Shown: piece by piece, positions 4,093 to 57,729 of the stretch | Position numbering within the stretch: position 1 is the stretch's first letter | How the letters are laid out: the number at the start of each line of letters is the position of its first letter | DNA from: a virus | Strand: one strand, 5' to 3' | Length of the DNA: 61,496 nt | UHGV virus genome: UHGV-0350099 | The notes under the pieces: generated by a model | What the model saw: the letters and a program-made list of their open reading frames with translations, nothing else | Database searches by the model: none | What the model was told of the DNA's origin: nothing | Program-made: the position numbers and the translations under genes

Positions 4093-4875
4093 GTGCCAAT
4101 TGTCGGTGTTCCCGGTTGGATTGGGTCTTCGGCTGTCAGTGTGACAGGCCAGAGATGGATGAGTGCGGCTCGAACGGCGGTGCAACTGCCAGCGGCTGGT
4201 TCAATGTCTCAAATGGCCGGGCGATCTAAAGAAGTTCAGTACAGCATCGGTGCGAATCATAACTACAACAAAGACACACTGATCAACTATTTAAAATCCC
4301 AGGGGGCGACGCCAGTCGTTGTTACCATTACAGGGGATCTGGTGTCGTCCAGTAGCGGCGTGCCATGTTTAGATTTCCCGAGTTCACTTACCAACTCTTA
4401 TATCAGCCTTGTAATCAACGCAGGTGTGACTGTCTATGGACGCGGTGGCAATGGTGGTAGTAACGCTGCCGGTGCTGCTGGTGGTAACGCAATTAATAAT
4501 GGCATCGGTACACGCTTGCGTATTACGAATAATGGTGCAATCGCTGGAGGTGGTGGCGGCGGTGGCGGCGGTAACAGGGGTCGACTAGTATTTGGTGGTG
4601 GCGGTGGGTGCCCATTCGGTGCTGGTGGGTCTTCCTCTCATATGAGTTCCGGTGCAACTGCTGGTACTATTTCCACTCCTGGTAAGGGATCTGTTGGTGA
4701 GGGGTCTCTTAGTGCATATACAGGCGGTTCGGGTGGTAATGTCGGTGCTGCTGGAGGAAGATGTAATACTCAAGGTAACGGTACAGAATATAACGGCGGA
4801 GCAGCTGGTAAAGCTGTTACTGGTAATGCTCCAACTTGGACTAAAGTTGGAGCAATTTACGGCGCTCATGTGTAA
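4093..4875 (+). CDS. Glycine-rich protein, possible tail fibre tip/receptor-binding or fibre-associated protein
   Basis: ORF frame 1; start moved to GTG 4093 after RBS AAGGAG (4079-4085) because ATG 4036 lies inside a hairpin; long poly-Gly tracts; position directly after tail fibre. Confidence 0.4.
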   Translation: MPIVGVPGWIGSSAVSVTGQRWMSAARTAVQLPAAGSMSQMAGRSKEVQYSIGANHNYNKDTLINYLKSQGATPVVVTITGDLVSSSSGVPCLDFPSSLTNSYISLVINAGVTVYGRGGNGGSNAAGAAGGNAINNGIGTRLRITNNGAIAGGGGGGGGGNRGRLVFGGGGGCPFGAGGSSSHMSSGATAGTISTPGKGSVGEGSLSAYTGGSGGNVGAAGGRCNTQGNGTEYNGGAAGKAVTGNAPTWTKVGAIYGAHV

Positions 4876-38224: not shown

Positions 38225-38708
38225 CCAACCACTGCGGTGAGTAGTCTGCTCACCGCATTCGTATCCAGCTCATTATCCACTGTAGTCAGTAACAAAACCT
38301 TCCTACATATCTGCTAACCACTGTAGCGAGTAGACAGCCTTTCATTCGCATCAAACAACCACTATGGTGAGTATTGGAGTGAGATGTCCAGCGGGTATCC
38401 ACTATGGTGAGTAAGCCTTTGCTGTTTTCAGTGGATATCCACTCGCCACAGTGGATACGCTCAAAGATGAGGGCGACAACAACCACTATAGACAGTAAAT
38501 TTTCCAAGATACCCAGTGACCACTAACCTCGCAGCCCTTGTTTCATCAGTGTTAGTGATCACTAACATTTAATTCAGTATTTGCATTCTACTGCCTACAG
38601 TGGTTATCAACAGATAACGATACTCACTATAGTGGATAGCGAATTACAGATATAAGTAAGGCTCACTACAGTGGATAGTGAGCCTTACTACTAACTACAG
38701 TGGTTGGG
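38225..38708. repeat. Iteron-like repeat array downstream of repA (incA-like copy-control candidate)
   Basis: About 11 copies of CCACTRTRG(N)GAGTA / CTACAGTGGWTA at roughly 40-bp spacing, both orientations; core CACTATAGTG is palindromic. Confidence 0.6.
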
Positions 38709-39764
38709 CTATTTGCGAGTCTTTGCCTTGCGCAACTCTTCGAGAAGCGCCAGTTCTTCTTTACTCAACATGACCATTTTGCCTTCTTTTTCGTCAGGCA
38801 CAACGTCGATAATGTCATCTTGATTCTCATCTGGGAGGCTATATTCCGTCTCATCATTATCGATTTTTGTTGATATTTGTGCCTGGCGTAACTTTGGCCG
38901 CCTATAGTGGATGACGAAGTAGACCGAGTTTCCGCGCTTAACTTCCGTGTAATCGAGATATCCTATCTCTCGCAGCTGTTCCATAGCCTTTCTTACCGTC
39001 GCATTCTGAGTAATAGTGCGACTTGTCAGATTAAGTCTGGCGCGTAAACGGGCTAGTGATATTGGTGCCGGATCAGGCGGCAAACTTTCAATAAAAGTAT
39101 AAAGCGCCTGAGCGGATTCTTTTCTTGAGAGTTCGTTTATAGCCCGGAGTTGCAGAAGAACCTTTTTGTCGAACTGGTAGAGTTCGAAAATCTTGGGATC
39201 TGCTTTCAGTTCGACCGTATCGTGCTTGACACTATATTTTGCCGTTTGCACAAGATGCGTTACGTAAAACTCATCAGAGCCTTTGCTACGGAACGAGATG
39301 GTATTTGTGGCAATACGGCTTAGCGAACTGTCCAGGCGTTTGCGTAACTTCGCTGATGACCTGGCGGTCGGAATGCCACACAGCCTTACAAACTCAACGA
39401 ACGGCAACGTGACAGTATCGCCAACGACCTTGTGTTTGGCAAACGCGTGGATTATTCCCACCCACGTTTTAAAGTCGTTATCCATATCAAGCCGAAGGCC
39501 AGAGATCCTTATGTCTTCGTACCCTTCGGCTTTTGCCAGAGACAGCTGTTTGAGTTCAGCAGAGGCATCCATAGAGACCATTTGCCCCTTTCTTCCTCTG
39601 GATGTCGATTTCAGCGTCGGAACGAAGAGGCCCAGACGCATCAAAGCAACAGGCTGAACAGTGTTATTAGTGTTAGGAACCAACGTAACAACTTCGCCTG
39701 TCTTTTTATCTGTTTCTGAAAATGCTTCAACGATCGCTATGTTTTTATTGCCGTTTTCGCTCAT
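38709..39764 (-). CDS. repA: Iteron-type plasmid replication initiator RepA (P1 RepA / RepFIB-like)
   Basis: 351 aa flanked by iteron arrays; [47 protein letters not shown] segments recalled as matching P1-type RepA (no search run). Confidence 0.8.
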
Positions 39765-39804: not shown

Positions 39805-39930
39805 GCTGATTACAGTGGATAGTAGCACTCATCACAGCGGTTATCCTACCGTCTATAGTGGTTTTTCTCCTCTCTATAGTGGTTGCTTTGCTCCCTATAG
39901 TGGATTATTCGCTCTCTATAGTGGATATCG
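39805..39930. repeat. Origin iterons (6 direct repeats, about 21-bp spacing)
   Basis: YTCTATAGTGGWT cores at 39811, 39833, 39853, 39875, 39896, 39917. Confidence 0.7.
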
Positions 39931-39964
39931 ATCATGTCTGAAGGCAGATGGCACAACGGTTTGA

Positions 39965-40050
39965 GGTGGGCGGGGATCTTATTGGGTCTTTATGGGTCTC
40001 TTTGGTTCTCTTTGTGATCTGAATTACTGGATCGGGCCTGTGGATAAAAA
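39965..40050. promoter_or_regulatory. Degenerate GATC-heptamer region plus DnaA-box-like TGTGGATAA
   Basis: GGGATCTTATT/GGGTCTTTAT/GGGTCTCTTT/GTGATCT repeats; TGTGGATAA at 40039-40047. Confidence 0.45.
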
Positions 40051-40204: not shown

Positions 40205-40310
40205 TACTCTCTACAGTGGATATATACAGCTCTCCAGAGTGGTTGTTTTACTCTTCATAGCGGTTATTCAGCTCTCTACAGAGGTTTCTTTGCTCTCCAT
40301 AGTGGATGGC
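40205..40310. repeat. Second iteron set (5 repeats), part of duplicated origin module
   Basis: CTCTACAGTGG, CTCCAGAGTGG, CTTCATAGCGG, CTCTACAGAGG, CTCCATAGTGG at 21-22-bp spacing. Confidence 0.6.
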
Positions 40311-40344
40311 AACACCCTTTCAGACCAGTAACCGCAACGGCTAG

Positions 40345-40420
40345 AGGCGATCGGGGATCTCTTTGGATCTTCTATTTGATCTTACTTGGGATCTCTTATT
40401 TGGATCTATCCAGTGGATAA
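40345..40420. promoter_or_regulatory. Cluster of six GATC sites at 11-13-bp spacing plus DnaA-box-like CAGTGGATAA
   Basis: CGATCGGGGATCTCTTTGGATCTTCTATTTGATCTTACTTGGGATCTCTTATTTGGATCTATCCAGTGGATAA. Confidence 0.55.
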
Positions 40421-40507
40421 CTGGGATAAGTAAAACAGGCAAATGCAGATTAAGGTATGCCTAATGAGTTATCGTAGCATCGGCCAATAACTACTGAAAA
40501 AACGATT

Positions 40508-41152
40508 ATGGATCTAAAACGCACGCGCTGGGTTCGTCGTCTTGAGGACGGCTCCTACACTATCGAATCAAATTCCAACCTGAATAAGCAGAAGTTACTT
40601 TGTGATATCTGCGGTATAGCGGCGAAGTGCCCGATCTACGAAACCAGAATTAAACTTGATAAGGCTGGTGTGAACTTTCATTTGAATAGTTGTATCAGGT
40701 ACGTTCCATTGCTCGCATTTCGTAAACCGATCATCGGATTGGATGCGCCCTACTTCAACACACTCCGTTCAGGAGTAACGTGGCGAGATCGTTTATCACC
40801 AGACAAACTGATTTGCCTTGTATCCGCAGATACAGGAAAAATCATTCGTTTTGGGAAAGTAGACAAGGTTTACTCAGGCCCAGTTGACGAGATGTTGCGG
40901 AAACACAGCCGGTTTAATCACCTCTGCATGGGTGGTGAGAAAATCGAGAAGGTTGAAGAAGTGATCCGCAAATCCTACGGACACTTCCTGACCAAAGATA
41001 GCCTGCTCACCGCAATCTACATCAGACATGTAAAACGTGAGTTCGACCTCGAATACCACAGCGAAGAAGAGCTTAACCTTGTTGACCCACGTCCAAAAGC
41101 TGGCGTCATAAGCATAAACGCAGCGCGTAAAAAGCCCACTGACGCGCTGTAA
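40508..41152 (+). CDS. Hypothetical protein
   Basis: 214-aa ORF next to origin region; no motif recognised. Confidence 0.5.
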   Translation: MDLKRTRWVRRLEDGSYTIESNSNLNKQKLLCDICGIAAKCPIYETRIKLDKAGVNFHLNSCIRYVPLLAFRKPIIGLDAPYFNTLRSGVTWRDRLSPDKLICLVSADTGKIIRFGKVDKVYSGPVDEMLRKHSRFNHLCMGGEKIEKVEEVIRKSYGHFLTKDSLLTAIYIRHVKREFDLEYHSEEELNLVDPRPKAGVISINAARKKPTDAL

Positions 41153-54547: not shown

Positions 54548-55357
54548 ATGAGTTCGGTTGAAAATGTAATGACAAATGATGATCTGGACGAGCTGACAGC
54601 CATGTTGCAATCACTTGATGAACCAGTAAAAAAAGCTGCACAGGTTGAAAATACTGATGATATTGACGATCTGCTGCTCGGCCTAGATGCTGGCGTAGCC
54701 ATGAGTTCTGATGATGTTGCCGAAGAACTGTTCAATGAAGAAAAAGCAGGTGATTTCAGCTCTGCTTTAAATGAGTTGGAGTTAGCGCATGAGCCTATAA
54801 ACGTAATTAACGTTGAAAGTGTTGAAGCTGCCGAAAACGAGCCAGAACAATTGGGATTTATTGAGGTTGAAGAGTGTGTTGAGGTTAATGATGAATTAAA
54901 AGTTCAACAGTCAAATGATAGCAATACAAATAAAAAAGCTCGTACTGCAAGAGGTCCTCGTTTTACTTTAAGTGATAAAGATGATTCGTTTTTCAATAAA
55001 GCGGGCTTAGAAAAAGATATTTTCTTAGACGCTTACGATAACGCGCCTGTCAAAGCAAAGGATAAGATATTAAACCTTCTTAATTGGTTTAGCGGAGGTC
55101 CAGATATTAGTGTTTACACGGTAATTTCCATGAGACACCTTCTCACAGAAAAGAAGGCTACAAGTAATAGTATTAAGATTGCTTTAATGAGCAATCCAGA
55201 AAAACCGTATCCGCTTAACACTGCGTCAACTCAGGCTGGGCAAATGATGGCTGTATTTCCAGCGACAGGAATTGCCGTTAGAGACGGTGGAAATCTAACA
55301 TTGAACGAAGAATCACCGATCGTTAAGAAGTTTGTCGCGGAGTACACTATTGGATGA
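54548..55357 (+). CDS. Hypothetical acidic protein (AT-rich gene)
   Basis: 269-aa ORF, Asp/Glu-rich N-terminal half; lower GC than neighbours. Confidence 0.45.
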   Translation: MSSVENVMTNDDLDELTAMLQSLDEPVKKAAQVENTDDIDDLLLGLDAGVAMSSDDVAEELFNEEKAGDFSSALNELELAHEPINVINVESVEAAENEPEQLGFIEVEECVEVNDELKVQQSNDSNTNKKARTARGPRFTLSDKDDSFFNKAGLEKDIFLDAYDNAPVKAKDKILNLLNWFSGGPDISVYTVISMRHLLTEKKATSNSIKIALMSNPEKPYPLNTASTQAGQMMAVFPATGIAVRDGGNLTLNEESPIVKKFVAEYTIG

Positions 55358-55432
55358 CGTTCCCCTACTGAAAATAAAGCCCATAGAGAGCTTTATAGTG
55401 CTGGGTAAGCCAATCACATACCCAGCACCACA

Positions 55433-55480
55433 AAAACGCGCCAGAGAGCTTCTCGTTTGCATTTCTGGCGCGTTTTATTT
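55433..55480 (+). terminator. Rho-independent terminator (12-bp stem)
   Basis: AAACGCGCCAGA ... TCTGGCGCGTTT followed by TATTTGATT. Confidence 0.55.
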
Positions 55481-55509
55481 GATTGCCAGACATAAAATCA
55501 AATGCAAAA

Positions 55510-55530
55510 ATAGGTATTTACTTACCTATC
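55510..55530. promoter_or_regulatory. Palindromic intergenic motif ATAGGTATTTACTTACCTATC
   Basis: Member of dispersed motif family, upstream of methyltransferase gene. Confidence 0.45.
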
Positions 55531-55540
55531 GAGAAAGAAG

Positions 55541-56134
55541 ATGATTGCAGCCGAAAAAATCAAACAGCGAAAGCGCGACAACTCTCTTCGTGACCTCTGG
55601 AGAACACCTGACTGGCTGTTTTCTGCCATTCAACGTTATCTTGGAGTGACATTTGATGTTGACGTTGCCTGCAACAAGGACAATGCAAAGCTGCCTAATT
55701 TCATAGGCGTTGAGCGTGATGCTTTGAAATCTGAATGGGGACAGCCAGGTACAATTGCCTTCCTCAATCCACCCTACTCCAAAATCTCCCCCTGGATTGA
55801 TGCAGCTATACGTGAGCAGGCTCGCGGAGTTACAACAGTGATGCTAATTCCTCAATCCCTAGATACAAAGTGGTATGAGCGTGCAACAGAGTGTGCGAAT
55901 GAGACGATTATTCTGTCTGGTGGCCGCGTAGCGTTTGTCGAGCCTGACGTCAATCTGGGTCAGGTAGAAGTAAACATCAACCCCGGTGGCAGTATGCTCG
56001 TTGTTTTTCGAGGATTCTGTCAGGACGCTGGGCACTCTATAAGCAAGATCCCTTTGGACGTCATGAAAAGTCTGGGAGGGTATGATCCTGCGAATGTGGT
56101 CAGAAAAAAAAGACCATCAAAGAAGGCTGCTTAG
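55541..56134 (+). CDS. DNA N6-adenine methyltransferase (phage Dam-like)
   Basis: Motif IV AFLNPPYSKI (NPPY); 197 aa typical of small phage N6A methyltransferases. Confidence 0.6.
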   Translation: MIAAEKIKQRKRDNSLRDLWRTPDWLFSAIQRYLGVTFDVDVACNKDNAKLPNFIGVERDALKSEWGQPGTIAFLNPPYSKISPWIDAAIREQARGVTTVMLIPQSLDTKWYERATECANETIILSGGRVAFVEPDVNLGQVEVNINPGGSMLVVFRGFCQDAGHSISKIPLDVMKSLGGYDPANVVRKKRPSKKAA

Positions 56135-56320
56135 TTTGTTCTGGCGTCTGTAATTAGCCTGCTTCTGTATATATAAATAACTACATATTAATTATTAATA
56201 TACGGAAACAGGCTGTTTTGTATCAGAGACTCCAGACCTGAACATCACTACAGAATCCACTAGAACCCCTTCCCAGACGCTTTAAAATCGATTTTATGAA
56301 CCACTTTAAGGAAAACTAAC

Positions 56321-56551
56321 ATGCCATACCCGACCAATGTTGTTGCGCTCGTAGAGAGCGATTTTCTGGCTAAGGCTCGTGAAATGATGAAAGACCGCGA
56401 GCAGGCTTTCAACTTGTACGAATGGGCAATTAAGTGCTTGCATCTTGGGGAACATCGCGAACTTGTTGAACAGCTTTTAGGTGAGTTGATCAACGAGGTG
56501 TTTGCCTTGAATGTTCAACTACATGGTCGAGAAAATAATCAATCGAAATGA
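56321..56551 (+). CDS. Hypothetical small protein
   Basis: 76-aa ORF. Confidence 0.4.
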   Translation: MPYPTNVVALVESDFLAKAREMMKDREQAFNLYEWAIKCLHLGEHRELVEQLLGELINEVFALNVQLHGRENNQSK

Positions 56552-57135
56552 TAGATAAGTACAAACTATTCATAAAATGAATTGTAAGTGCTAAGATCTG
56601 ATAGTTTCCAGTCGTAGACTGGAGACTCGACCTGATGGGTGGGGGTAAGCGTCACTGGCGTCAGGTTTAAAAAAGCTCACTACCAGCGTAGAACCGGTGC
56701 CGTTTAGGTGTCGGGGAAGGGGGAACCAAAGTGAGCGGAGACAAGGGTCACTTTATGATTGTCGAGTCTGGGGTGTTTCGAGAGGTTGAATCCAGTACTC
56801 CCCTTCATAAAGTGTGGGAAGATCTCGGTTCTGGGGTGCTGTCATCCATAACTTCCCAAGTCTAAGCTGGCAGTAGACTTAGGCCATAACTTTTCAGGTT
56901 ATGAAACGACCAGGTTGGTGAGGGATTTTTATACTCACCTCCCTGGGAGAGTATTACCTGAAAAGACAACCTCTCACTTCGTTCGAGGTGAACTTCACTC
57001 ACTTCGTTCGTTCAGTTCAGGTTTATAAAAACCTGTTCTGGGAAGTAATTTGTTTATTTTAATAATTATTAACACGCACGCGTGTGCGCACGCGCGAGGA
57101 AAAAAATCGGCGCGGCGCTTGATTCAGGAGTTTAT
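56552..57135. other. About 580-bp non-coding region with direct repeats and a GC-rich double palindrome
   Basis: No ORF of 60 aa or more; CACTCACTTCGTTCG tandem repeat near 56985-57015; CACGCGTG/GTGCGCAC palindromes at 57073-57098. Confidence 0.4.
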
Positions 57136-57729
57136 ATGACGACGAAGACACCAGCCCGATCGCAAGACAAAACTCGCAAAAAAGCCAAAAACAAAAATTC
57201 TCCCCGCACCAATTCCACAACGCCTGTCGTAGAGTTCAATCCCCAGCTTAAAACCGTGAAAATCTTCAGTGATGGCTCTTGCCTTAAAAATCCGGGTGGC
57301 CCGGGCGGTTACGGTATAGTTCTCCAGTATCGTGGTGAGGAACGCGAGTTCTCAGATGGTTTTCATAGCACCACCAATAACCGCATGGAGATGATGGGGG
57401 CACTTATCGGGCTGGAGCGTTTGAAATATCCATGCAACGTTATTTTGCACTCTGATAGCCAGTATCTGAAAAACGGCATGACACAGTGGATGAAATGGTG
57501 GAAACGCAATGGATGGGTGACTTCTGACAAAAAACCGGTAAAGAATGTTGATCTGTGGAAGCGTCTGGATGAGGCTGCAAGTCGACATAATGTTCGCTGG
57601 AAGTGGGTTAAAGGTCACGCCGGGCATCGTGAAAATGAAATATGTGATCGACTCGCGAAGATCGCAGCTTTTTCCGCAGCAGATATGCCTCACAAGAAAG
57701 ATATTGGTTTTGTTTACAACAAGCAGTAA
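57136..57729 (+). CDS. rnhA: Ribonuclease HI with basic N-terminal extension
   Basis: [57 protein letters not shown]; start at ATG 57136 after RBS AGGAG. Confidence 0.9.

What the first reader, a model, noticed from the sequence alone, without database searches (positions are those of the whole stretch)
55541..56134. Dam-like N6-adenine methyltransferase encoded together with a GATC-heptamer origin
The origin module contains clustered GATC sites (40345-40410), and P1-type origins are known to depend on adenine methylation. The element encodes its own NPPY-motif N6A methyltransferase, which could make origin function or anti-restriction independent of host Dam. Its sequence specificity is unknown.
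Basis: inference. Interest (0 to 1): 0.55.

Follow-up and report, generated by a model that had tools for sequence, protein, structure and literature searches.

The report
Phage Dam-type methylase, silent in lysogeny
The gene is a real, already-annotated phage adenine methyltransferase on an SSU5-like phage-plasmid whose replication origin is a true copy of the phage P1 GATC-rich origin, but the evidence says the origin runs on the host's own methylase and the phage enzyme belongs to the switched-off lytic gene set, so this is an ordinary feature.

Summary
Both observations are real. ORF 55541-56134 (+, 197 aa, NPPY at residues 76-79) belongs to the T1/HP1/VT2 "phage Dam" family: PF05869 at 2.5e-38, and TIGR01712 at 113.9 bits against a cutoff of 97. 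The six GATC at 40349-40406 are the only strong GATC cluster in the window. They align base-for-base with the annotated Dam sites and DnaA boxes of P1 oriR, and RepA is 47.5% identical to P1 RepA.

The window is an SSU5/pHCM2-like phage-plasmid, 98.6% identical over 34 kb to phage Cyrano (pLF82). GATC specificity is likely, about 0.75. Four characterised family members, only 31-38% identical to each other, all methylate GATC, and this protein is 25-39% identical to them.

The proposed coupling to the origin is not supported:
- In published LF82 RNA-seq the gene (CYRAN_79) sits at the detection floor, while repA is more than 20-fold higher and the plasmid is kept at 5.5 copies.
- Yersinia pestis pMT1 keeps the same six-GATC origin but has no homologue of the gene.
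- The gene lies behind its own terminator and an operator-like palindrome, within the repressed DNA-metabolism block.

The most likely role is methylation of progeny DNA during lytic growth. The gene is already annotated in hundreds of records, so interest is low.

The parts
55541..56134 (+). Orphan phage N6-adenine DNA methyltransferase gene (197 aa; CYRAN_79 in phage Cyrano; PGAP protein WP_000559568.1)
   Evidence: ORF. PF05869 at 2.5e-38 and TIGR01712 at 113.9 bits against a 97.05 cutoff. PHROG 111 'DNA methyltransferase' at 2e-65 and PADLOC 'orphan methyltransferase'. AlphaFold2 model with mean pLDDT 84.6; best PDB fold matches are N6-adenine methyltransferases.
55766..55777 (+). Codons of catalytic motif IV, NPPY (residues 76-79)
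   Evidence: Invariant in the alignment with the T1, HP1 and VT2-Sa Dam enzymes and in the 22-member family alignment.
55433..55480 (+). Intrinsic-terminator hairpin plus U-tract that ends the upstream unit (ORF 54548-55357)
   Evidence: RNA fold -26.2 kcal/mol, z = -5.3, none of 200 shuffles as stable. Conserved in SSU5 and pJN2-26, with a G-C to A-T compensatory change in pJN2-26.
55483..55511 (+). Sigma-70-like promoter candidate, TTGCCA-17-(TG)AAAAAT
   Evidence: Consensus scan, 9 of 12 matches, with a TG extension. This is a consensus match only.
55510..55529 (+). Operator-like 20-bp palindrome, ATAGGTA-N6-TACCTAT, overlapping the -10 element and start region of the methylase gene
   Evidence: Conserved in SSU5 and pJN2-26. 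Nine sites at 2 or fewer mismatches in the window against 0.06 expected. All are intergenic and lie upstream of + strand units.
40345..40410 (.). GATC-heptamer block of the P1-type origin (six GATC)
   Evidence: Aligns with P1 oriR's annotated 'Dam methylation sites 1-5'. Conserved across family members that carry different iterons.
40411..40429 (.). Two tandem DnaA-box-like 9-mers (AGTGGATAA, CTGGGATAA)
   Evidence: Aligns with the annotated DnaA binding site of P1 oriR.
40207..40312 (.). Five iterons at 21-bp spacing (origin module B)
   Evidence: the repeat finder families D1-D3.
39806..40048 (.). repA-proximal duplicate of the origin module (iterons, spacer, heptamer block with GATC decayed to GGTC/GTTC, and DnaA box TGTGGATAA)
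   Evidence: Repeats D1, D7, D8 and D11. The same decayed copy is present in SSU5 and pMT1.
38709..39764 (-). repA, a Rep3-type initiator of the P1 RepA/RepFIB kind
   Evidence: Pfam Rep3_N and Rep3_C. 47.5% identity to P1 and P7 RepA, E 1e-71. The near-identical plasmid pRM9131-1 is typed IncFIB.
38300..38706 (.). incA-like iteron array downstream of repA
   Evidence: Repeat families D2-D6. Same position as the nine incA iterons of P1.

Best explanation
The ORF encodes a small orphan DNA N6-adenine methyltransferase of the T1/HP1/VT2-Sa 'phage Dam' family (PF05869). It most likely methylates GATC. It is a core gene of SSU5-like phage-plasmids and belongs to their lytic DNA-metabolism block. 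Its neighbours are ribonucleotide reductase, ThyX, DHFR, a 3'-5' exonuclease and RNase HI.

In the plasmid-prophage state the gene is switched off. The P1-type origin, with its six GATC, is then methylated by host Dam, exactly as in P1. After induction the gene is expressed from its own promoter. Inferred step: it then keeps the roughly 450 GATC per genome copy methylated while phage DNA replicates faster than the scarce host Dam can follow. Packaged DNA would therefore leave fully methylated. That would protect it from methylation-sensitive GATC restriction, and it would arrive in the next cell with an already methylated origin.

Shown here: family membership, intact catalytic motif, homology of the origin to P1 oriR, silence in lysogeny, conservation and synteny, and independence of the origin from the gene in pMT1. 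Inferred: GATC specificity, lytic timing, and the benefit of methylating progeny DNA.
For: Family: PF05869 and TIGR01712 score above their curated cutoffs. All residues invariant among the T1, HP1 and VT2-Sa enzymes are present. The fold is that of a SAM-dependent adenine methyltransferase. No nuclease partner was found next to it.

Specificity: M.EcoVT2Dam and M.EcoT1Dam are GATC enzymes (PMC6602927 and PMC4996451). M.Btr190III, 35% identical to T1 Dam, methylates GATC with some off-target activity. M.Phi93DAM of a Lactococcus phage was shown to methylate GATC by SMRT sequencing and DpnI/DpnII digestion (PMC4190342). The T1, HP1, VT2-Sa and Phi93 enzymes all hit PF05869 and are only 31-38% identical to each other. 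The window protein is 25-39% identical to them.

Lysogenic silence: the window is 98.6% identical to Cyrano over 34 kb, and the methylase gene is CYRAN_79. In the LF82 RNA-seq table S1 of PMC9928086 its log2(5+FPKM) values in LB are 2.82 and 2.32, where 2.32 is the floor. Its normalised value is 6.0, against an element median of 9.8, RepA at 133 and the repressor at 96. The plasmid is kept at 5.5 copies per cell.

Context: the gene has its own terminator, promoter-like site and palindrome, and the palindrome is shared with 8 other intergenic sites ahead of + strand units, including the replication and nucleotide-metabolism genes.

Core gene: 685 plasmid records carry it at 80% identity or more, with the same flanking genes.

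Origin without the gene: pMT1 has the same duplicated origin with six GATC but no homologue (best tblastn E 0.5).

Precedent: P1 dmt serves pac-site methylation in the lytic cycle (review PMC12707154). Orphan phage methylases are typically silent in lysogens (same review).
Against: Nobody has measured the specificity of this protein, and its Pfam score (132 bits) is well below those of the characterised GATC enzymes T1, HP1 and VT2-Sa (218-251 bits). It is therefore a divergent subfamily.

No expression data after induction were available, so lytic timing is inferred from position and from silence in lysogeny.

All known hosts are Dam+ Enterobacteriaceae, so the benefit of extra GATC methylation is unproven.

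No pac-like GATC cluster exists anywhere in the Cyrano genome, so the specific P1 packaging role does not transfer.

pMT1 carries an unrelated PF01555 methylase of unknown specificity, so it is not a perfectly clean natural knockout.
Confidence: 0.6

Rival explanations
1. The element's own methylase methylates the six GATC of the P1-type origin, so that plasmid replication and maintenance do not depend on host Dam.
For: The origin is a true P1 oriR homologue with conserved GATC sites. It is the only GATC cluster in the whole element. Two unrelated phage-plasmid lineages with this origin type each carry an adenine methylase, of different families: SSU5-like elements carry PF05869, and the P1-like JK004 carries a D12-class plus C5 fusion.
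Against: The gene is at the RNA-seq floor in the lysogen, while repA is more than 20-fold higher and the plasmid is stably kept at 5.5 copies. pMT1 retains the identical origin architecture without the gene. All hosts listed are Enterobacteriaceae, which are Dam+ by established knowledge. By my own recollection of Abeles and Austin 1987 (only the title is visible), P1-origin plasmids cannot be established in dam- hosts even though P1 encodes dmt. PF05869 enzymes are common in phages that lack such origins (1979 phage records), so co-occurrence is weak evidence.
Confidence: 0.08
2. The enzyme is not GATC-specific. It has a different or relaxed specificity and serves as a broad anti-restriction ('Trojan horse') methylase expressed on exit from the cell.
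For: It is a divergent branch of the family: 25-39% identity to characterised enzymes and a lower HMM score. M.Btr190III of this family already shows marked off-target activity. Promiscuous prophage methylases exist, are silent in lysogens and are toxic if expressed (Hia5, M.EcoGII). The protein has no separate target-recognition domain (197 aa).
Against: Every characterised PF05869 enzyme found here targets GATC, across Gram-negative and Gram-positive phages that are as divergent from each other as this protein is from them. Hia5 belongs to a different, DPPY, classical-Dam-related family.
Confidence: 0.17
3. On induction, a burst of the methylase rapidly remethylates the origin's GATC block and cancels SeqA sequestration of hemimethylated oriR. 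This would convert the copy-controlled plasmid origin into a rapidly re-firing lytic origin.
For: The origin's GATC block is the only GATC cluster in the element, and it is conserved even where the iterons and Rep type differ. No separate lytic origin or second initiator is annotated in Cyrano. By established knowledge, P1 oriR is sequestered by SeqA when hemimethylated (Brendler, Abeles and Austin; my own recollection).
Against: This is purely inferential. The element encodes T4-like recombination proteins (UvsW, UvsY, a gp32-like SSB and RecA), which suggests recombination-dependent lytic replication that needs no origin re-firing. Iteron handcuffing, not only sequestration, limits P1-type origins.
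Confidence: 0.08
4. The methylase has a regulatory, epigenetic role in the lysis-lysogeny decision, as reported for the Dam of Stx phage 933W.
For: Its closest characterised relatives are the Stx-phage and lambdoid Dam enzymes (39% identity). By my own knowledge, Murphy, Ritchie and Waldor 2008 reported that Dam is required for stable 933W lysogeny.
Against: The gene is silent in lysogeny. No GATC lies in its own promoter or palindrome region. The 20-bp palindrome motif contains no GATC.
Confidence: 0.05

Closest known systems
M.EcoVT2Dam, the Dam of Stx phages VT2-Sakai and 933W (PF05869)
   Same: Same Pfam family. 39% identity over 145 residues (E 3e-31). NPPY motif, small size (175 vs 197 aa), orphan, encoded among early and replication genes of a temperate enterobacterial phage. 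Known to target GATC.
   Different: The window protein has a 3-residue insertion before the conserved N(P/S)xGS segment and a different basic C-terminal tail. It resides on a plasmid-prophage rather than an integrated lambdoid prophage. Its specificity is untested.
M.EcoT1Dam (phage T1), HP1 Dam (Haemophilus phage HP1) and M.Phi93DAM (Lactococcus phage phi93)
   Same: All hit PF05869. T1 and Phi93 are reported as GATC enzymes; HP1 as a GATC enzyme is my own recollection. Identity to the window protein is 25-31%, comparable to their mutual 31-38%.
   Different: T1 and phi93 are virulent phages. T1 Dam has a 40-residue N-terminal extension, and Phi93DAM is truncated at the C-terminus.
Phage P1: oriR plus the Dmt methyltransferase
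   Same: P1 is also a plasmid-prophage. Its RepA is 47.5% identical. The origin layout is the same: incA-like iterons, repA, five iterons, spacer, GATC heptamers, two DnaA boxes. The GATC/DnaA block aligns directly. P1 also encodes a GATC-methylating enzyme used in the lytic cycle.
   Different: P1 Dmt is a large fusion. A D12-class plus C5 domain architecture was verified here for the Dmt-like protein of the P1-like phage JK004, and it is not PF05869. P1 has a GATC-rich pac site, whereas Cyrano has no second GATC cluster. The window's origin module is tandemly duplicated, with one decayed copy.
Yersinia pestis pMT1 (pFra) and Salmonella Typhi pHCM2
   Same: Same replicon: RepA, the duplicated origin with six GATC, and the adjacent 214-aa ORF. 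pHCM2 (NC_003385) also carries the methylase at 86% identity.
   Different: pMT1 lacks the whole 46-61 kb DNA-metabolism block, including the methylase. It carries an unrelated PF01555 methylase instead.
E. coli Dam, T4 Dam and Hia5 (classical D12-class, DPPY enzymes)
   Same: Same chemistry (m6A), and for Dam and T4 Dam the same GATC target.
   Different: A different family. The window protein has no PF02086 hit, has NPPY rather than DPPY, and has no separate target-recognition domain. Hia5-type non-specific enzymes are related to classical Dam, not to PF05869.

Membership tests
PF05869 / TIGR01712 phage N6-adenine methyltransferase (T1/HP1/VT2 'phage Dam') | Profile HMM score above the curated cutoff | tested here: met
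   Pfam 131.8 bits against a cutoff of 28.1; TIGR01712 113.9 bits against 97.05.
PF05869 / TIGR01712 phage N6-adenine methyltransferase (T1/HP1/VT2 'phage Dam') | Catalytic motif IV NPPY and the family-invariant residues | tested here: met
   N76-P77-P78-Y79-S80, plus D18, W20, T22, P23, D41, N48, W66, R129, F132 and N147, are all conserved with the T1, HP1 and VT2-Sa enzymes.
PF05869 / TIGR01712 phage N6-adenine methyltransferase (T1/HP1/VT2 'phage Dam') | SAM-dependent methyltransferase (Rossmann-like) fold | tested here: met
   AlphaFold2 mean pLDDT 84.6, pTM 0.82. Top Foldseek PDB hits are M.TaqI, CAPAM, KsgA, CamA and M.BseCI (E about 1e-3, TM 0.45-0.5). The resemblance is remote, and no solved structure of this family was found by sequence.
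PF05869 / TIGR01712 phage N6-adenine methyltransferase (T1/HP1/VT2 'phage Dam') | Orphan: no cognate restriction endonuclease adjacent | tested here: met
   The neighbours are a DEDDh exonuclease, two small proteins of unknown function (PHROGs 5235 and 5343, no defence-system hits) and RNase HI.
PF05869 / TIGR01712 phage N6-adenine methyltransferase (T1/HP1/VT2 'phage Dam') | m6A methylation of GATC | not testable with these tools
   Inferred only from four or five characterised relatives at 25-39% identity.
Classical Dam (D12 class, PF02086: E. coli Dam, T4 Dam, P1 Dmt) | PF02086 domain with a DPPY motif and a separate target-recognition domain | tested here: not met
   No PF02086 hit. The motif is NPPY, and the 197-aa single domain has no extra domain. 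It is 'Dam-like' in expected function only.
P1-type oriR (RepFIB/P1 RepA iteron origin with Dam-site heptamers) | Initiator homologous to P1 RepA | tested here: met
   47.5% identity over 254 residues, E 1e-71, to P1 and P7 RepA. Rep3 WH1 and WH2 domains.
P1-type oriR (RepFIB/P1 RepA iteron origin with Dam-site heptamers) | Order: repA, five iterons at about 21-bp phasing, G+C-rich spacer, GATC heptamers, tandem DnaA boxes; plus an incA-like iteron array beyond repA | tested here: met
   Direct alignment with the annotated P1 features.
P1-type oriR (RepFIB/P1 RepA iteron origin with Dam-site heptamers) | Initiation requires Dam methylation of the heptamers, and SeqA sequesters the hemimethylated origin | not testable with these tools
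   Known for P1: the titles of Abeles and Austin 1987 and Abeles et al. 1993 appear, and the details are my own knowledge. Here only conservation of the GATC sites supports it.
SSU5-like phage-plasmids (pHCM2 / pLF82-Cyrano group) | Near-identity to a known member and a shared gene order | tested here: met
   98.6% identity over 34 kb to Cyrano. 99% identity to E. coli non-mobilizable plasmids of about 105-125 kb, one of which (pRM9131-1) is typed IncFIB. SSU5 homologues at 81-91% identity.

The most novel reading that the evidence does not exclude
The methylase and the origin's six-GATC block form a lytic switch. Induction-time overproduction of the enzyme would erase the hemimethylated, SeqA-sequestered state of the P1-type oriR, turning a stringently copy-controlled plasmid origin into a runaway lytic origin. 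Analogous pairings (P1-like phages with Dmt, SSU5-like elements with a PF05869 enzyme) would then have arisen by convergence.
Probability: 0.08. Interest if true: 0.55.

Novelty: already known. Interest (0 to 1): 0.2.

Why it matters
That could widen its host range to Dam-negative bacteria. The evidence points the other way: the origin uses host Dam and the phage enzyme is a lytic-cycle function, as in P1.

Three practical points remain:
- The specificity of the SSU5-branch enzyme has never been measured, although the gene sits on more than 680 sequenced clinical Enterobacteriaceae plasmids.
- These plasmids should be unable to replicate in Dam-negative hosts if the P1 rule holds.
- The conserved palindrome found upstream of the gene gives a handle on the still-undescribed lytic regulon of this widespread plasmid group.

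Tried and rejected
1. Hia5-type non-specific methylases as relatives. Rejected: the Hia5 paper shows they are DPPY enzymes related to classical Dam, not PF05869.
2. Sequence search of the PDB found no hit. The fold search gave only remote methyltransferase matches, so no DNA-contact residues could be transferred to predict specificity.
3. A P1-like packaging role through a GATC-rich pac site. Rejected: the whole Cyrano genome has no second GATC cluster.
4. GATC avoidance or enrichment as a clue to methylation or restriction pressure. Uninformative: observed/expected 0.85, like most other 4-bp palindromes.
5. Literature searches for a measured specificity, or any study of the SSU5/pHCM2 methylase or its link to the origin, found nothing. 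The Klebsiella p2 plasmid paper does not mention it.
6. The Abeles and Austin P1 papers, the Murphy 2013 review and a 2026 preprint on phage-plasmid copy number could not be opened. P1 methylation dependence therefore rests on cited titles, the annotated P1 record and my own knowledge.
7. An Rfam scan of 55000-57500 found nothing credible.
8. The simple terminator scan missed the hairpin upstream of the gene because of its long loop. Direct folding found it.

Full report
**What the window is.** The region around the finding is 99% identical to non-mobilizable E. coli plasmids of about 105-125 kb; one of them, pRM9131-1, is typed IncFIB. It is 98.6% identical over 34 kb (window 27268-61494) to Escherichia phage Cyrano, the pLF82 phage-plasmid of E. 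coli LF82. It is related at 81-91% to Salmonella phage SSU5. The window is therefore an SSU5/pHCM2-like phage-plasmid.

**The observation.**
- The ORF at 55541-56134 (+) is exactly as described: 197 aa, with FLNPPYS at residues 74-80.
- It hits Pfam PF05869 'DNA N-6-adenine-methyltransferase (Dam)' at E 2.5e-38. It passes the curated cutoff of the NCBIfam equivalog TIGR01712 'phage N-6-adenine-methyltransferase', at 113.9 bits against 97.05.
- PGAP already names the identical protein (WP_000559568.1) this way in the public records.
- PHROGs and PADLOC call it a DNA methyltransferase and an orphan methyltransferase, and none of its neighbours looks like a nuclease partner.
- An AlphaFold2 model built on a 22-sequence alignment is confident (pLDDT 84.6, pTM 0.82). 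Its best PDB fold matches are N6-adenine methyltransferases such as M.TaqI, CAPAM, KsgA, CamA and M.BseCI. The matches are remote (TM 0.45-0.5), and no solved structure matches by sequence.

**The GATC cluster.** Six GATC lie at 40349-40406. No other 100-bp stretch of the window has more than three. In the full 108-kb Cyrano genome this is the single strong cluster, and random placement reached six in 60 bp in 0.2% of trials.

**The origin is a true P1 oriR homologue.**
- The initiator gene (38709-39764, minus strand) has Rep3 WH1 and WH2 domains. It is 47.5% identical to RepA of P1 and P7, E 1e-71.
- Reading away from repA, the layout is five iterons at 21-bp phasing, a G+C-rich spacer, the GATC heptamers and two tandem DnaA boxes. 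A further iteron array lies beyond the other end of repA.
- This is the P1 layout of incA, repA, incC iterons, Dam sites and DnaA boxes.
- The window's GATC/DnaA block aligns directly with the P1 stretch annotated 'Dam methylation site 1-5' and 'DnaA'.
- The same block is conserved in SSU5, pMT1, pJN2-26 and PhiR41_1, and in the otherwise unrelated P1-like Cronobacter phage JK004. These elements use three different iteron sequences.

That P1 oriR needs Dam methylation is established knowledge. The titles of Abeles and Austin 1987 and Abeles et al. 1993 appear, but the papers themselves could not be opened.

**Likely specificity.**
- PF05869 enzymes with measured specificity found here are M.EcoVT2Dam (GATC; PMC6602927) and M.EcoT1Dam (GATC; PMC4996451).
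- M.Btr190III, 35% identical to T1 Dam, methylates GATC with off-target activity.
- M.Phi93DAM of a Lactococcus phage was shown to methylate GATC by SMRT sequencing and DpnI/DpnII digestion (PMC4190342).
- HP1 Dam is also a GATC enzyme, by my own knowledge.
- I confirmed that the T1, HP1, VT2-Sa and Phi93 proteins all hit PF05869. They are only 31-38% identical to one another, and the window protein is 39, 31, 25 and 30% identical to VT2-Sa, HP1, T1 and Phi93 respectively.
- All residues invariant among them are present in the window protein.
- A family that keeps GATC across that much divergence and host range makes GATC the best guess, which I put at about 0.75.
- The window protein scores far lower against the Pfam model (132 bits) than T1, HP1 and VT2-Sa (218-251 bits) and is a distinct branch, so a changed or relaxed specificity is not excluded.
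- Hia5-type non-specific enzymes are not relevant precedents, because they are DPPY enzymes related to classical Dam.

**Is the enzyme coupled to the origin?** Four lines of evidence say no, at least for plasmid maintenance.

1. Expression.
   - The gene is CYRAN_79 in Cyrano.
   - In the LF82 RNA-seq table (S1 Table of PMC9928086) its log2(5+FPKM) values in LB are 2.82 and 2.32. The value 2.32 is the floor, meaning zero reads.
   - Its normalised value is 6.0, against an element median of 9.8, RepA at 133 and the putative repressor at 96. It stays among the lowest genes in all ten samples.
   - The same paper measures 5.5 plasmid copies per cell, and shows induction by ciprofloxacin.
   - The origin therefore works while the gene is off.

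2. A natural deletion.
   - Y. pestis pMT1 has the same RepA, the same duplicated origin with six intact GATC and the same adjacent ORF.
   - A tblastn of the methylase against positions 1-100,000 of the 100,990-bp pMT1 record finds nothing better than E 0.5. pMT1 lacks the whole 46-61 kb block of the window.
   - Caveat: pMT1 has an unrelated PF01555 methylase of unknown specificity.

3. Gene context.
   - The gene lies 15 kb from the origin, inside a same-strand block of DNA-metabolism genes. The block includes SbcCD, NrdAB, MazG, ThyX, PNK, DHFR, a DEDDh exonuclease and RNase HI.
   - This synteny is conserved in about 740 plasmid records.
   - A strong terminator hairpin ends the upstream unit (-26.2 kcal/mol, z = -5.3).
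   - It is followed by a promoter-like TTGCCA-17-TGnAAAAAT and a 20-bp palindrome, ATAGGTA-N6-TACCTAT.
   - All three features are conserved in SSU5 and pJN2-26, and the terminator stem carries a compensatory change.
   - The palindrome recurs at eight other intergenic sites ahead of + strand units, including the helicase/primase, SbcD, NrdA and ThyX units. That makes nine sites, against 0.06 expected by chance.
   - It looks like the operator or promoter signature of a regulon that is silent in the lysogen.

4. The P1 precedent. P1 also encodes a GATC methylase (Dmt), whose documented role is pac-site methylation during lytic growth.

- The origin is the only GATC cluster in the element.
- Two unrelated phage-plasmid lineages with this origin type each carry an adenine methylase of a different family. 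SSU5-like elements carry PF05869, and the P1-like JK004 carries a C5 plus D12-class fusion.
- This is suggestive but weak, because PF05869 genes alone occur in 1979 of 50,697 phage records.

**Best explanation.** This is an orphan, probably GATC-specific, T1/HP1/VT2-type phage Dam enzyme of the repressed lytic DNA-metabolism regulon. It would methylate progeny DNA when phage replication outruns host Dam. Virion DNA would then leave fully methylated, protected against methylation-sensitive GATC restriction and carrying a pre-methylated oriR. Family membership, origin homology, lysogenic silence, conservation and the pMT1 counter-example are shown. Specificity, lytic timing and benefit are inferred. 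The P1 packaging role does not transfer, because there is no pac-like GATC cluster.

**Novelty.** The gene is annotated as a phage N6-adenine methyltransferase in SSU5, Cyrano, pHCM2 and hundreds of plasmid records. The replicon is typed IncFIB where typing was shown (pRM9131-1 and pMT-1), and its P1-like nature follows from plain homology. No paper in the searchable library measures the enzyme's specificity or links it to the origin. The finding is a correct reading of two known features joined by a hypothesis that the available data mostly contradict, so interest is low. The by-products described in the notes are more novel than the finding itself: the palindrome regulon, the duplicated origin with a GATC-decayed copy, and a strongly expressed small unit downstream of the gene.

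Noticed in passing
window 55510-55529; also 9923, 13357, 16710, 37475, 41275, 45959, 50537, 57726 (3-mismatch sites at 4868, 30738, 35523): A 20-bp palindrome, ATARGTA-N6-TACYTAT, recurs at 9 intergenic sites (0.06 expected by chance). The sites lie just upstream of + strand units, including the helicase/primase, SbcD, NrdA, ThyX and methylase units. It is conserved in SSU5 and pJN2-26 upstream of the methylase. It is probably the operator or promoter signature of the silent lytic DNA-metabolism regulon of SSU5-like phage-plasmids. The pattern was derived from the methylase site, so that site's perfect match is by construction.
   Followed up: partly
window 39806-40048 versus 40207-40429: The origin module (five iterons, spacer, heptamers, DnaA box) is tandemly duplicated about 380 bp apart. 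In the repA-proximal copy three of the six GATC have decayed to GGTC or GTTC. The same decayed copy is conserved in SSU5 and Y. pestis pMT1, whereas pJN2-26, PhiR41_1, JK004 and P1 have a single module. Which copy fires is unknown. The decayed copy might act as a methylation-independent control locus.
   Followed up: partly
window 56552-57081 (44-aa ORF at 56731-56865, CYRAN_81): The large intergenic gap downstream of the methylase holds a tiny ORF that is 12-fold above background in the LF82 lysogen (117 against a median of 9.8), while its neighbours are silent. It could be a moron or a small RNA. Rfam gave no hit.
   Followed up: partly
L012/L013 (Y. pestis pMT1, NC_004838), record positions 66648-67325: pMT1 shares window regions 13964-46011 but lacks the 46-61 kb nucleotide-metabolism block, including the methylase. 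It carries instead an unrelated PF01555 (DPPY) 'DNA methylase' next to ArdA and ParB-like genes, typical of a conjugative-plasmid leading region.
   Followed up: partly
L021:26653-29160 (Cronobacter phage JK004) and L009:2480-2600: JK004 shares only the roughly 100-bp GATC/DnaA-box block with the window at DNA level. Its RepA is 47% identical to the window's, and it encodes a fused C5-cytosine plus D12-class adenine methylase resembling P1 Dmt. Two of its heptamers read GTAC instead of GATC.
   Followed up: partly
window 40508-41152: The 214-aa ORF immediately next to the origin (annotated as ASCH-domain in Cyrano; no Pfam or NCBIfam hit here) is conserved in 838 plasmid records, including 63 Yersinia pMT1-type plasmids. 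It travels with the replicon even where the lytic genes are lost.
   Followed up: no
window 55433-55480: The hairpin terminator upstream of the methylase has an A-run on its 5' side and a U-run on its 3' side, so it is possibly bidirectional. It shows a G-C to A-T compensatory change in Klebsiella phage pJN2-26.
   Followed up: yes
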